49,911 nt of DNA from the sequence record PZ445414.1; one strand, written 5' to 3'. The translations under genes and the position numbers were made by a program. Every line of letters begins with the position of its first letter. Positions within the stretch are counted from its first letter, which is position 1. Positions 7,471 through 49,909 of this stretch are shown piece after piece. The DNA is from a phage. A model generated the notes under the pieces. It saw only the letters and a list, made by a program, of their open reading frames with translations. It searched no databases and was not told where the DNA came from.

Positions 7471-7869
7471 ATGAATCAAGATGTTATTGACCAGATCGTA
7501 AAAATTGCGCCTCCTTTCGCTGGTGTTGATCCGGCCTTACTACAGGCCTGGATTGAGCTAGCGGAGGAATTTGTTTGCAAGAAGCGTTTCAAGGACTCAT
7601 ACACCAAAGCTGTTGCGCTCTACACATTGCACCTAATGACGCTTGACGGAGCCATGAAGCAAGAAGGGGAGAGCGTAGAATCTTATTCTCAGCGCGTCGC
7701 GTCATTCTCCCTGACTGGTGAATTTTCTCAGACGTTTGATCGCGTTTCTTCTGATTCATCCGGCAAGGAAATCCGACAGACTCCGTGGGGCAAGATGTAC
7801 GAGGCTTTAAACCGCAAGCGCGGCGGAGGATTTGGGCTTGTAACTGGATTGCGGCGGAGGTCTTGCTAA
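7471..7869 (+). CDS. head-tail adaptor/connector protein (putative)
   Basis: 132 aa; position between capsid and tail genes; SD GGGGGA. Confidence 0.4.
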
Positions 7870-48362: not shown

Positions 48363-48593
48363 ATGTTCGGATTGAATGAGGCAGAATTCAACATCGTCAA
48401 GCGTGCGGCAAAAGATTGCGTAAACGAGATCGCTGATCGCATTGAGCAGAAGGACGAGAAATATGATCGCATTGCTGCGGGTATTATCTGCAAACACTAT
48501 CAGCCGATTAGCACTCTGCTGACGAAAACGCAGTTTATATGGCTCGCCGGATATCTGCGCGGAAGGTGGGGAAAGAATTTTGACCGCGAATGA
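48363..48593 (+). CDS. hypothetical protein
   Basis: 76-aa ORF. Confidence 0.4.
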   Translation: MFGLNEAEFNIVKRAAKDCVNEIADRIEQKDEKYDRIAAGIICKHYQPISTLLTKTQFIWLAGYLRGRWGKNFDRE

Positions 48594-48622
48594 TTGACGT
48601 CACGGCTCTGATTGGTTAACCT
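48594..48622 (+). promoter_or_regulatory. sigma70-like promoter TTGACG-N17-TAACCT preceding a non-coding region
   Basis: ttgacg 48594-48599, taacct 48617-48622. Confidence 0.35.
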
Positions 48623-48624
48623 AA

Positions 48625-48728
48625 GTCCCGTGAACATAAGAACGGCCTTTTAGCCGAACGAGTAGCGCGGAGCTACACAACAACGGCGCTATGCTGGTGG
48701 ATAACCGTAAGACGTAGCGCCTTTTTTT
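48625..48728 (+). ncRNA. candidate small non-coding RNA (promoter-to-terminator unit without ORF)
   Basis: TTGACG-N17-TAACCT promoter at 48594-48622, terminator at 48685-48728, only 7-8 codon ORFs between. Confidence 0.25.
48685..48728 (+). terminator. terminator (hairpin with long loop + T7)
   Basis: ggcgcta ... tagcgcc ttttttt. Confidence 0.5.
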
Positions 48729-48741
48729 ACAGGAGAAAGCA

Positions 48742-48909
48742 ATGAAACGATATCCAGAAGAAACAGCCAAAGTGACCATCATCGTAGAGCGAAACGGCGT
48801 TAAGACTCGCTACAAGAAACGATTCAAGAAAGGCGAGGCGATGTTAGGCCGAATCTCTGACTTCATGATCAAGATTCAAGAGGATAAGCCAGATGAAATG
48901 GAAGGTTAA
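48742..48909 (+). CDS. hypothetical small protein (55 aa)
   Basis: ATG after AGGAGAAAG directly downstream of terminator-like hairpin. Confidence 0.35.
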   Translation: MKRYPEETAKVTIIVERNGVKTRYKKRFKKGEAMLGRISDFMIKIQEDKPDEMEG

Positions 48910-49078
48910 GCTTACCATCCGGCGCATGGGGCGACAATGCCGCTCCTGCAAGCAAGTTTTTGAATGCGAGGTTTCAGCCTCAAACGAGGTAGAGGCGGCG
49001 CAGTTTGCAAAAGAGCTTTCTGGCGCAGATCCAGAAACACATAAATTTTCAATCGACTATTTAAGGAGCTTATCATGA
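48893..49078 (+). CDS. hypothetical protein (Cys-containing)
   Basis: 61 aa; CxxC pair (CRSC) ; overlaps upstream small ORF. Confidence 0.4.
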   Translation: MKWKVKLTIRRMGRQCRSCKQVFECEVSASNEVEAAQFAKELSGADPETHKFSIDYLRSLS

Positions 49079-49308
49079 TCTTAGGTTTTGTAATTGGATT
49101 CATTGCCGCTATCGTTATGGTTTTGGTTGTTGGTGGCGCTGCGCAGAAATACGCAATCAAAAAAGGCTGGTACGCCTCCGCGATCTGGATTGAGAAAGAG
49201 AAGCGCTGGAAAGTGCGCGGTCGATTCCTCAGTGTGGCATCTAAGCTTCACGCTGGAATCCTGGAAGAATACCGCTCAGGACGGAAAACCGTCAAATACG
49301 TAGATTAA
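49075..49308 (+). CDS. small membrane protein
   Basis: 77 aa; N-terminal TM helix ILGFVIGFIAAIVMVLVVGG; followed by strong terminator. Confidence 0.45.
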   Translation: MILGFVIGFIAAIVMVLVVGGAAQKYAIKKGWYASAIWIEKEKRWKVRGRFLSVASKLHAGILEEYRSGRKTVKYVD

Positions 49309-49311
49309 CCT

Positions 49312-49337
49312 AAGCCCCGCGTTTGCGGGGTTTTTTT
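49312..49337 (+). terminator. intrinsic terminator before terminase small subunit gene
   Basis: ccccgc gttt gcgggg ttttttt. Confidence 0.8.
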
Positions 49338-49378
49338 GTGCCTGTTATAATTGGCCTCCAACAAGAGGAGGATTAACC

Positions 49379-49909
49379 ATGAGCAGAGAAGAAAAACAAA
49401 AGCCATTCACGGCTTACAACTTCAAGAAGCTATATAACAAGCAATATGGCGACATTGCCACGTTAGGCAAGCAACACCGATACACGCCGGAGCAGGTTTT
49501 CAATCTTGCGGTCAAATACTTTGAGTGGGCGGAGTCCAACGCGCTAAAGGCGGCTGAATCTTCATCGTTCCAGGGTCGCACTTACCAGGACGAGGTAAAC
49601 AAGCCGCGCGTTTTCACGTTCAACGGTCTGCGCCTGTTTTGCGGCTGGTCGCGCTGTGCTATGGAGAAATGGAAGAAAGAGCCTGGCTTCTCTGAGGTCA
49701 TGGAGTTTATCGAATCCGTGATCTATGAGCAGAAATTCCAGCTTGCGGCTAACGGCGTGATTAACGCTGCATTCATCGCCAAAGACCTGGGAGTTGACCA
49801 GCCGACGCAAATCAACGTTAGCGCAAACTCCGAGTCAAGCGCTGCAATCGCAGAGGTTGGGGCTGATGAAGTGCGCGAGGCGGTTCGTGATATCCTGGCG
49901 GAGATCTGA
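49379..49909 (+). CDS. terminase small subunit
   Basis: 176 aa; SD GAGGAGG; position immediately upstream of TerL in circular map; typical small-terminase size and charge pattern. Confidence 0.65.
   Translation: MSREEKQKPFTAYNFKKLYNKQYGDIATLGKQHRYTPEQVFNLAVKYFEWAESNALKAAESSSFQGRTYQDEVNKPRVFTFNGLRLFCGWSRCAMEKWKKEPGFSEVMEFIESVIYEQKFQLAANGVINAAFIAKDLGVDQPTQINVSANSESSAAIAEVGADEVREAVRDILAEI

What the first reader, a model, noticed from the sequence alone, without database searches (positions are those of the whole stretch)
48594..48741. Promoter-terminator unit without ORF: candidate phage small RNA
Seen in sequence: TTGACG-N17-TAACCT (48594-48622) followed by ~100 nt with only 7-8-codon ORFs and ending in a hairpin ggcgcta...tagcgcc + T7 (48685-48728). 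The segment TTAACCTAAG(T/C)CCCG(T/C)G also recurs at 49304-49322 where it forms part of a terminator. Not tRNA-like (no T-loop/D-loop signatures).
Basis: seen in the sequence. Interest (0 to 1): 0.45.

Follow-up and report, generated by a model that had tools for sequence, protein, structure and literature searches.

The report
Conserved structured RNA of T1-like phages
The unannotated 148-base gap ahead of the DNA-packaging genes of coliphage IsaakIselin holds a promoter, a roughly 100-base non-coding RNA of three hairpins and a terminator; this RNA is conserved with compensatory base changes across several hundred T1-like phage genomes, including T1 itself, and is in no RNA family database, but its function is unknown.

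Summary
The window is Escherichia phage IsaakIselin (Bas10, Drexlerviridae). Positions 48594-48741 are an unannotated gap holding TTGACG-N17-TAACCT, no ORF, and a 37-nt hairpin followed by seven T.

In one genome the promoter match is at chance level. Comparison makes it real:
- The unit recurs at the same syntenic place in at least 149 Tempevirinae records, 347 Webervirus records and T1.
- -35 TTGAC is invariant, the spacer is 17 bp, and only positions 1, 2 and 6 of the -10 are kept.
- Three hairpins keep pairing through compensatory changes: P1 95% paired, P2 100%, P3 98.5%, with 0/500 shuffles reaching these values.
- U-G pairs place the structure on the + strand RNA.
- Single-stranded motifs (5' GUNNACAUAAGAG, AACG, loop GCGNNA, CCGUAAGA) are conserved.
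- Rfam, tRNA and ORF tests are negative.

The terminator is lineage-specific. T1 and TLS lack it and run into an SD and ORF, and three distant relatives run into tRNA genes.

The element is therefore a new conserved non-coding RNA. In IsaakIselin it is most likely released as a ~100-nt RNA, with read-through serving as leader for bas10_0088-0090. No transcript data exist, and the mechanism is inferred.

The parts
48594..48599 (+). -35 hexamer TTGACG
   Evidence: TTGAC is invariant in 41 distinct relatives. It is also present in Webervirus and T1.
48608..48616 (+). Spacer motif CTGATTGGT. It is one copy of a genome-wide over-represented motif.
   Evidence: The motif is conserved at this place in nearly all relatives, as CTGAYYGG. 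There are 17 copies in the window against 1.8 expected.
48617..48622 (+). -10 hexamer TAACCT, 17 bp after the -35
   Evidence: Positions 1, 2 and 6 (T, A, T) are invariant or nearly so, while positions 3-5 vary among relatives: TAGCAT, TAACAT, TAGATT, TATCGT, TAACGT, TATAAT and others.
48600..48633 (.). Inverted repeat TCACGG / CCGTGA enclosing the spacer motif and the -10 ('P0')
   Evidence: Arms of 6 nt, p about 0.02 in this phage. Such repeats are enriched among relatives, but their register is not conserved and close relatives lose them. Its status is unexplained.
48630..48642 (+). Conserved single-stranded 5' box GUGAACAUAAGAA. The predicted start of the RNA is at 48629-48631.
   Evidence: This is the most conserved transcribed segment in all classes; ACA and AAGA are nearly invariant. 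The start site is inferred from its distance to the -10 and has not been measured.
48643..48656 (+). Hairpin P1 (CGGC, loop CUUUUA, GCCG)
   Evidence: 95.4% of cells are paired against 53% in shuffles. All 4 pairs show compensatory changes, and there are 8 or more different stems.
48657..48661 (+). Conserved junction AACGA
   Evidence: AACG is nearly invariant between P1 and P2.
48662..48676 (+). Hairpin P2 (GUAGC, loop GCGGA, GCUAC)
   Evidence: 100% paired in 41 distinct sequences on a plain MAFFT alignment. Four of 5 pairs are compensatory and 0/500 shuffles reach this. RNAalifold recovers it. The loop is conserved as GCGNNA.
48677..48684 (+). A/C-rich linker ACAACAAC
   Evidence: Conserved in class A relatives and A-rich in class B.
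48685..48721 (+). Hairpin P3. Outer stem 48685-48693 with 48713-48721; inner UGG/CCG 48698-48700 with 48705-48707; conserved CCGUAAGA at 48705-48712.
   Evidence: The outer stem is 98.5% paired, and 6 of 9 pairs are compensatory. U-G is the commonest type at one pair, which points to + strand RNA. RNAalifold recovers it. Hairpin energy is -18.6 kcal/mol.
48722..48728 (+). U7 tract. With P3 it forms an intrinsic terminator.
   Evidence: Read directly from the sequence. Class A and C relatives keep 4-8 T here; T1, TLS-like and the tRNA-linked relatives have none.
48731..48744 (+). Shine-Dalgarno AGGAG and the ATG of bas10_0088, the first gene of a three-gene cassette that has no evident promoter of its own
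49305..49321 (+). Second copy of TTAACCTAAG(Y)CCCG(Y)G. It overlaps the stop codon of bas10_0090 and the 5' half of the strong terminator at 49312-49333.
   Evidence: It occurs only in Henuseptimavirus, so it is not part of the conserved RNA element.

Best explanation
Positions 48594-48728 are a gene for a conserved, structured non-coding RNA of the Drexlerviridae.

Proposed sequence of events:
1. Host sigma-70 RNA polymerase starts about 7 nt after the -10, near 48630.
2. It makes an RNA with a single-stranded 5' box, two short hairpins (P1, P2), an A/C-rich linker and a long 3' hairpin (P3) carrying the CCGUAAGA motif.
3. In IsaakIselin, P3 plus U7 is an intrinsic terminator. Most transcripts should therefore end at about 48724-48729 as a free RNA of roughly 100 nt.
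4. The fraction that reads through carries the same RNA as the 5' leader of bas10_0088-0090.

I take the RNA body, not the terminator, to be the functional part. It would work as a stable RNA whose conserved unpaired motifs (5' box, AACG, GCGNNA loop, CCGUAAGA) are a binding platform for a protein or another RNA. It would be released by termination in classes A and C, and by processing in relatives where an ORF or a tRNA follows.

Shown: conservation, promoter signature, helices, strand, absence of coding.
Inferred: start site, termination, release, and acting in trans.
For: Identity and annotation gap.

Same element at the same syntenic position:
- 149 phage records
- 347 Webervirus records
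- T1 at 7587-7735, 48.3 bits

Promoter signature: TTGAC invariant, 17-bp spacer, and T/A/T of the -10 kept while the other three positions vary.

Helices:
- P2 is 100% paired with 4 of 5 pairs compensatory.
- P1 is 95.4% paired against 53% in shuffles, with 4 of 4 compensatory.
- P3 is 98.5% paired with 6 of 9 compensatory.
- RNAalifold finds compensatory changes in 10 of 13 pairs.
- Sliding the partners drops pairing to 14-63%.
- U-G and G-U pairs fit only the + strand.

Between IsaakIselin and Henu7 the flanking genes are 98-100% identical but the RNA body is only 70% identical, and all three stems still pair.

Other support:
- No conserved ORF.
- One copy per genome.
- The minimum-free-energy fold of the predicted transcript reproduces P1, P2 and P3.
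- In three lineages tRNA genes start 4-11 nt after the 3' hairpin. This fits a released stable RNA and not a translational operator.
Against: - No RNA-seq, Northern or start-site data for any member were found.
- T1 and the TLS-like lineages have no U-run, so a discrete RNA there needs processing that has not been shown.
- Several class A and C terminators are weak, with 4 U or an interrupted run.
- The element is always at the head of the same small-gene cassette, as a cis-regulator would be.
- No complementary target was found inside the phage beyond chance.
- The covariation counts include related sequences, so they are not independent events.
- The P1 and P3 alignments were anchored by hand on flanking motifs.
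Confidence: 0.5

Rival explanations
1. A cis-acting promoter-proximal leader. The nascent RNA (5' box, P1, P2, 3' hairpin) acts only on its own transcript or transcription complex. One version is an RNA-based processive antiterminator in the manner of HK022 put. Another, together with the conserved spacer motif and the initial transcribed box, is a loading site for a Q-like factor. Polymerase started here would then read through P3, through the strong terminator at 49312-49333 and through the many terminators of the late region. Polymerase arriving from upstream would stop at P3.
For: - The universal parts lie directly after the promoter. What follows varies between a terminator, an SD and ORF, or tRNA.
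- Genes 0088-0090 have no promoter of their own behind a U7 terminator.
- The late region carries many + strand terminator-like hairpins: 33 in the first 20 kb against 21 in shuffles. T1 has about 20 annotated terminators, and TLS has 21 terminators but only 3 recognised sigma-70 promoters.
- A conserved motif sits in the promoter spacer, where lambda Q binds. The lambda comparison is from established knowledge and was not tested here.
Against: - terS has its own strong promoter overlapping the upstream terminator: TTGCGG at 49323-49328, 17 bp, then TGT-TATAAT ending at 49351 (read). Late genes therefore need not depend on this unit.
- There is no boxA-like sequence.
- No antiterminator protein was identified.
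- Webervirus keeps only the box, P1 and a terminator.
- The spacer motif occurs about 25-36 times per genome, inside genes, which does not fit a dedicated loading site.
- Nothing here measures read-through.
Confidence: 0.28
2. A classical attenuator or riboswitch-like leader. A ligand, a protein or translation decides between the P3 terminator and an alternative antiterminator helix, setting expression of bas10_0088-0090.
For: - The architecture is promoter, structured leader, terminator, SD.
- In IsaakIselin a 7-nt alternative pairing, GUAGCGC with GCGCUAU, links P2 with the 5' arm of P3.
Against: - That alternative pairing is not conserved. In 10 other class A RNAs the best alternative is 4-7 nt and at chance level.
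- T1, TLS-like and the tRNA-linked relatives have no terminator at all.
- There is no leader peptide.
- The hairpins are simple, with no junction or pseudoknot typical of aptamers.
- There is no Rfam match.
Confidence: 0.07
3. No RNA function. The region is just the terminator of the upstream operon, a promoter and an untranslated leader for the next gene, and its conservation reflects DNA-level signals such as a packaging or replication site.
For: - By single-genome statistics the promoter match is at chance level.
- P3 also terminates transcripts coming from bas10_0087, which has no terminator of its own.
- A genome-wide DNA motif sits in the spacer.
Against: - P1 and P2 are needed neither for termination nor for initiation, yet they keep pairing through many compensatory changes.
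- U-G pairs are strand-specific.
- In T1 the element lies 7.6 kb from the pac end of the record, so it is not pac.
- The RNA body diverges faster than its flanks while keeping its structure.
Confidence: 0.05

Closest known systems
Lambda 6S RNA and StxS: the short transcript from the late promoter PR' ending at tR' (StxS: PMC7547250, seen only as title and abstract)
   Same: A host-polymerase promoter just upstream of the packaging and late genes gives a short non-coding RNA that ends at an intrinsic terminator. Read-through feeds the downstream genes. In Stx phages the short RNA has a trans-acting role of its own.
   Different: - There is no sequence relation.
- No Q homologue was identified.
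- Here the RNA body has covarying hairpins upstream of the terminator.
- The terminator is missing in T1 and TLS.
- terS has its own promoter.
HK022 put RNAs (cis-acting antiterminator RNA of two stem-loops just after PL and PR); comparison from established knowledge
   Same: Two short promoter-proximal hairpins whose stems vary while their shape is kept. No ORF. The genome is rich in terminators downstream.
   Different: No sequence similarity was tested or seen. The present element also has a conserved single-stranded 5' box and a conserved 3' hairpin motif. Antitermination has not been tested.
Phage T4 stable RNAs C and D (species 1 and 2), encoded in the tRNA gene cluster; function unknown; comparison from established knowledge
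   Same: Small stable non-coding RNAs of a virulent coliphage, co-transcribed with tRNAs and released by processing. In three relatives (L021, L022, L178) this element directly precedes tRNA genes.
   Different: IsaakIselin has no tRNA genes. No homology is known. The present RNA has its own promoter and, here, its own terminator.
Enterobacterial Hfq-dependent small RNAs with 5' seeds (RybB, OmrA/B type); comparison from established knowledge
   Same: About 100 nt, a conserved unpaired 5' end, an A-rich internal stretch, and a terminator hairpin with a U tail of 7 in IsaakIselin.
   Different: - Hfq binding and targets are unknown.
- Many relatives lack the U tail.
- The 5' box has no above-chance complement in the phage genome.

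Membership tests
Any Rfam 15 family | Covariance-model score at or near the family threshold | tested here: not met
   There were no matches at gathering score in the whole window. With E up to 10, no match fell inside 48594-48741. In 10 relatives' loci with E up to 0.1, only downstream tRNAs were found.
tRNA, tmRNA or tRNA-like | Cloverleaf recognised by ARAGORN or the Rfam tRNA model | tested here: not met
   ARAGORN finds no gene in the window, and Rfam tRNA gives no hit. Genuine tRNAs follow the element in L021, L022 and L178.
Sigma-70 promoter | -35 TTGACA-like and -10 TAnnnT hexamers 17 +/- 1 bp apart, with the positions contacted by sigma conserved | tested here: met
   TTGAC is invariant, the spacer is 17 bp, and T1/A2/T6 of the -10 are kept while positions 3-5 vary. 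Activity was not measured.
Intrinsic (Rho-independent) terminator | G+C-rich hairpin immediately followed by a U-run | tested here: met
   A 9-bp outer stem at -18.6 kcal/mol followed by U7. The stem covaries. This is met in classes A and C only. It is not met in T1, the TLS-like phages or the tRNA-linked relatives.
Structured non-coding RNA | Helices kept by compensatory substitutions, and no conserved reading frame | tested here: met
   Helices. ORFs differ in frame and length among relatives, and one relative has none.
Riboswitch or attenuator | A conserved, mutually exclusive antiterminator/terminator pairing | tested here: not met
   The best alternative pairing to the 5' arm of P3 is at chance level in 10 of 11 class A RNAs.
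Type III toxin-antitoxin antitoxin RNA (ToxI-like) | Tandem direct repeats of about 34-36 nt between promoter and terminator, followed by a toxin gene | tested here: not met
   There are no tandem or direct repeats inside 48594-48741. The downstream ORFs are 55-77 aa and of unknown function.
Lambdoid PR'-qut-tR' (Q antitermination) | A Q protein gene, a Q-binding element in the promoter, and a sigma-dependent promoter-proximal pause | not tested
   Only the layout (promoter, short RNA, terminator, conserved spacer motif) resembles it. No search for a Q homologue was made, and pausing cannot be tested with these tools.
HK022 put RNA | The nascent two-hairpin RNA makes its own polymerase terminator-resistant | not testable with these tools
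   Two promoter-proximal covarying hairpins exist. Function is untested.
Hfq-dependent small RNA | Hfq binding through a 3' U tail and an internal A/U-rich site, plus seed pairing with targets | not testable with these tools
   U7 and ACAACAAC are present in IsaakIselin. There is no U tail in T1 or TLS. No internal target was found.
pac site or packaging signal | Lies at the packaging start | tested here: not met
   In T1 the record starts at the terminal repeat (1-2800) and the element is at 7587-7735.

The most novel reading that the evidence does not exclude
The unit may be the control point of late transcription in T1-like phages, a mechanism that has never been worked out. In this reading it is a composite of three parts: a DNA site in the promoter spacer (CTGAYYGGT, which is also the most over-represented word of these genomes), a conserved initial transcribed box, and a nascent structured RNA. 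Together they would convert host RNA polymerase into a terminator-resistant form, or load a phage factor onto it. Only polymerases started here would then pass P3 and the roughly 20 terminators of the structural-gene region.
Probability: 0.15. Interest if true: 0.8.

Novelty: new member of a known kind. Interest (0 to 1): 0.6.

Why it matters
T1 is one of the seven classic T phages, and the Drexlerviridae are among the coliphages and Klebsiella phages most often isolated for therapy. Their transcription programme is nevertheless almost unknown. The TLS re-annotation found only three sigma-70 promoters and listed the intergenic repeats as an open question.

This work defines a conserved, unannotated RNA gene present in at least several hundred sequenced genomes. 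It comes with a testable promoter, a secondary structure and named conserved nucleotides. That gives three practical gains:
- an entry point for studying phage-encoded RNAs or transcription control in this family;
- a candidate new Rfam family;
- a correction for genome annotation, since some records call spurious ORFs across it, for example bas07_0089.

The fast turnover of the stems between otherwise identical phages hints at specificity or an arms race.

Tried and rejected
1. Known RNA family: Rfam at gathering score and at permissive E-values, on the window and on relatives. Nothing found.
2. tRNA-like: rejected.
3. Hidden small ORF: frames and lengths are not conserved. The 35-aa CDS annotated in JakobBernoulli is therefore probably spurious.
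4. Minus-strand RNA or a DNA palindrome: rejected because of the U-G and G-U pairs. The weak 'terminator' the scanner calls on the minus strand at 48656-48643 is simply the reverse complement of P1 and the box.
5. pac site: rejected from the T1 coordinates.
6. A conserved helix 'P0' around the -10: inverted repeats are enriched, but their register differs between lineages and single substitutions destroy them in close relatives. Left unexplained.
7. Conserved antiterminator pairing: not found.
8. Target of the 5' box inside the phage: 4 other sites with 3 mismatches, against 3.9 expected in total.
All 80 loci that were listed and checked (of at least 120 returned) failed the covariance model.
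10. Literature: seven searches found no description of this RNA and no transcriptome of a T1-like phage.
11. Function of the gene that is always downstream, bas10_0089:
   - It falls in a PHROG of unknown function and has no Pfam match.
   - It gave a confident model (pLDDT 91, beta-beta-alpha-beta) but no significant PDB match (best E 0.02; RNA polymerase epsilon/YkzG-like hits at E 0.3-0.6).
   - The label 'bacterial RNA polymerase inhibitor' in one Webervirus record is therefore unsupported.
12. Resemblances I noticed by eye were not testable and are treated as coincidence: CRISPR repeats, 16S rRNA helix 45, boxA, the 11-nt tetraloop receptor. The same goes for the Chi octamer inside the P3 loop (48693-48700).

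Full report
**Identity of the window.** The window is Escherichia phage IsaakIselin (Bas10, MZ501077.1; Drexlerviridae, Tempevirinae, Henuseptimavirus). It is rotated so that window position equals record position minus 533, and terS starts at 49379. The finding covers exactly the unannotated 148-nt gap between bas10_0087 (48363-48593) and bas10_0088 (48742-48909).

**Check of the observation.**
- TTGACG at 48594-48599, 17 nt, and TAACCT at 48617-48622.
- No + strand ORF of 20 codons or more.
- Hairpin 48685-48721 followed by T7 at 48722-48728.
- SD and ATG at 48731-48744.
- A second copy of TTAACCTAAG(Y)CCCG(Y)G at 49305-49321, against 0.01 extra matches expected by chance.

On the single sequence the evidence is weak:
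- The promoter pattern is as frequent as in shuffles, 5 against 5.3.
- The consensus scanner lists neither the promoter nor the hairpin.
- The fold z-score is -1.76.

**Distribution in relatives.**
- blastn of 48560-48780 finds 149 phage records. In nearly all, the matching stretch lies in an unannotated gap. The exceptions are short ORF calls across it, such as bas07_0089.
- Searches by protein synteny and by DNA pattern in IMG/VR brought in about 90 distinct versions.
- A short version is present in 347 Webervirus (Klebsiella phage) records.
- T1 itself has the element at 7587-7735 of NC_005833, 48.3 bits with my covariance model.
- The model finds exactly one copy in the window, at 48594-48685 (86.9 bits).

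The element always lies downstream of the phrog_303 gene and upstream of a phrog_2919 gene (bas10_0089), a DUF7299 membrane protein, a strong terminator and terS.

**Anatomy shared by the family**:
- -35 TTGAC(R), invariant.
- A 17-bp spacer that nearly always contains CTGAYYGG just before the -10.
- A -10 hexamer in which only T1, A2 and T6 are kept: TAACCT, TAGCAT, TAACAT, TAGATT, TAGGAT, TATCGT, TAACGT, TAAGCT, TATAAT. This is the signature expected of a working sigma-70 promoter.
- A conserved unpaired box, GU(N)(N)ACA(N)AAGAG.
- Hairpin P1, then the junction AACG(N).
- Hairpin P2 with loop GCG(N)(N)A.
- An A-rich linker.
- A 3' hairpin whose loop ends in CCGUAA.

Three classes differ at the 3' end:
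- Class A (Henuseptima-, Hanriver-, Warwick- and Changchunvirus): the 3' hairpin is long, carries CCGUAAGA in an internal loop, and is followed by 4-8 U.
- Class B (T1, TLS-like and others): an extra hairpin, then a 5-bp hairpin with an (N)CCGUAA loop, no U-run, then A(A/C)C(A)UUCA(G/A)GAG and an ORF.
- Class C (Webervirus): only the box, P1, AAGUCU and a short terminator.

In three distant relatives (L021, L022, L178), tRNA genes begin 4-11 nt after the 3' hairpin.

**Structure tests.**

| Helix | Alignment | Cells paired | Shuffled mean | Compensatory pairs | Paired after sliding partners |
|---|---|---|---|---|---|
| P2 | plain MAFFT, 41 distinct sequences | 100% | not reported for P2 alone | 4 of 5 | 19-60% (P1+P2 structure) |
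| P1 | ungapped, anchored only on the box and junction; 38 distinct sequences from all classes | 95.4% | 53% | 4 of 4 | 14-36% |
| P3 outer stem | 22 distinct class A sequences | 98.5% | 85.5% | 6 of 9 | 20-63% |

- For P1 and P3 separately, and for the P1+P2 structure in which P2 was counted, 0 of 500 shuffles reached the observed pairing and covariation score.
- For P1 the covariation score is 0.91 against 0.21 in shuffles, and at least eight different stems occur.
- In P3, U-G is the commonest type at one pair. G-U pairs also occur in P1 and P2. This fits RNA of the + strand and not the minus strand or duplex DNA.
- RNAalifold on 18 full-length class A RNAs independently recovers P2 and P3, with compensatory changes in 10 of 13 pairs.
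- The class B and T1 3' hairpin has seven different, perfectly complementary stems around the constant CCGUAA.
- The minimum-free-energy fold of the predicted IsaakIselin transcript reproduces P1, P2 and P3.

Caveats:
- The sequences are related, so counts are not independent events.
- The P1 and P3 alignments were built by hand from flanking anchors.
- For six sequences the P1 arms were located with a pattern that names them.

**Fast turnover of the RNA body.** Between IsaakIselin and Henu7 the identities are as follows:

| Segment | Identity |
|---|---|
| Upstream gene | 100% |
| Promoter | 97% |
| bas10_0088 | 98% |
| RNA body (48643-48721) | 70% |

All three stems are replaced by different complementary pairs. 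The body is a variable cassette that keeps its shape and its unpaired motifs.

**What it is not.**
- Not a tRNA and not in Rfam.
- Not coding.
- Not a type III antitoxin, since it has no repeats.
- Not pac, since in T1 it lies 7.6 kb from the packaging end.
- Not an attenuator with a conserved antiterminator helix. The 7-nt alternative pairing in IsaakIselin is not shared by relatives.

**How it most likely works.**

Shown: a conserved promoter signature, a conserved + strand RNA structure, and, in this phage, a strong terminator (9-bp G+C-rich outer stem, -18.6 kcal/mol, then U7).

Inferred: transcription starts near 48630 and mostly stops near 48724-48729, giving a free RNA of about 100 nt. 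Read-through supplies bas10_0088-0090, which have no evident promoter of their own. terS has one that overlaps the next terminator: TTGCGG at 49323-49328, 17 bp, then TGT-TATAAT.

The parts common to all lineages are the promoter, the 5' box, P1 (plus P2) and the CCGUAA hairpin. What follows can be a terminator, an ORF or a tRNA. For that reason I place the function in the RNA body itself.

Estimated probabilities:
- A stable RNA acting through its conserved unpaired motifs, released by termination or processing: about 0.4-0.5.
- A cis-acting promoter-proximal device (put-like or Q-like antitermination, or control of the fate of its own transcript): about 0.3. This reading is attractive because these genomes are full of terminators and poor in recognised promoters.
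- A classical attenuator: about 0.07.
- 'No RNA function': about 0.05.

The remainder is left unassigned. None of these can be separated without transcript mapping and reporter assays.

**Comparison with known systems.** In layout the unit resembles the lambda PR'-6S-tR' unit and StxS, HK022 put, the T4 stable RNAs of the tRNA cluster, and Hfq-type small RNAs. It meets the definitions of a sigma-70 promoter, of an intrinsic terminator (in this phage) and of a structured non-coding RNA. It fails the tests for tRNA, Rfam families, ToxI, attenuator and pac. Membership in the Q, put or Hfq classes could not be tested.

I found no description of it. The TLS re-annotation lists three promoters and 21 terminators but not this unit. 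I rate it a new member of a known kind, a phage-encoded structured small RNA or leader.

**Side observations** are listed separately. The most striking is that the spacer motif CTGAYYGG(T) is the most over-represented 8-mer of IsaakIselin and of T1, and also strongly over-represented in Webervirus NJS1.

Noticed in passing
window, 17 sites of CTGATTGG (e.g. 770, 3126, 5357, 12748, 14899, 22468, 29929, 32695, 39795, 41599, 48608 on +; 3260, 8179, 16817, 32893, 36996, 38777 on -); also L190 (T1) and L192 (NJS1): CTGATTGG occurs 17 times against 1.8 expected (largest shuffle 6) and is the most over-represented 8-mer of the genome. Together with CTGACTGG there are 25 copies of (C)CTGAYTGGT. T1 has 26 copies, with CTGACTGG on top. 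Webervirus NJS1 has 36 copies of CTGAYYGG. The sites lie on both strands, in all reading frames and mostly inside genes, so this is a DNA-level signal of unknown function. One copy sits in the spacer of the promoter studied here.
   Followed up: partly
window 1567, 27629, 30121, 31582, 31915, 41608, 42810, 44470, 47313 (+); 40268, 39823, 37783, 6097 (-): There are thirteen copies of the 21-nt repeat (A)AATAGCAC(N3)TTG(Y)TAAAA, which the TLS paper lists as unexplained. In most of the 13, it is followed 17-21 nt later by cATAAT/TATAAT/TATAGT and then CAACGAAAC. The spacer, or the flanks of the -10, often forms a G+C-rich inverted repeat. These look like a phage-specific promoter class, with TTGnTA as the -35.
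   Followed up: partly
window 48616-48632 and 49305-49321: A 15-17-nt direct repeat brackets the RNA together with bas10_0088-0090; the copies start 689 nt apart. It is found only in Henuseptimavirus (IsaakIselin, Henu7, L011). It may be a recombination boundary of an exchangeable cassette.
   Followed up: partly
window 49312-49351: The strong terminator AAGCCCCGCGTTTGCGGGGTTT plus a T-run overlaps a near-consensus extended -10 promoter for terS: -35 TTGCGG at 49323-49328 inside the 3' arm of the stem, a 17-bp spacer, then TGT-TATAAT at 49343-49351. The terminator and promoter are coupled.
   Followed up: no
window 48600-48605 / 48628-48633 and the same place in relatives: Inverted repeats enclosing the -10 of the promoter recur in many relatives, up to 10 bp in L128 and 7-8 bp in TLS-like phages. 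Their register varies and close relatives lose them.
   Followed up: yes
L186 455-562 (JakobBernoulli bas07_0089): A 35-aa CDS is annotated inside the homologous RNA element. No such frame is conserved in relatives, so the call is probably spurious.
   Followed up: partly
L021 1907-2554; L022 1974-2050; L178 1715-1792: Some T1-like phages from metagenomes carry one to six tRNA genes (Arg, Ser, Ser, Asn, Trp, Met) inserted directly after the RNA element, at the place where IsaakIselin has bas10_0088.
   Followed up: partly
window 48893-49078 (bas10_0089): This 61-aa protein is always encoded downstream of the element. It gives a confident beta-beta-alpha-beta model (pLDDT 91) with one conserved CxxC, but no significant structural match. 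One Webervirus record labels its homologue 'bacterial RNA polymerase inhibitor', which I could not support.
   Followed up: partly
window 48693-48700: The E. coli Chi octamer GCTGGTGG lies in the loop of P3. It is absent from the closest relative's element and is at chance frequency for a 50-kb genome.
   Followed up: no
MG0656xx records: About 20 GenBank records named 'Campylobacter phage' (marked UNVERIFIED) carry this element and are classified as Drexlerviridae, Tempevirinae. They are probably coliphage contaminants of those preparations.
   Followed up: no
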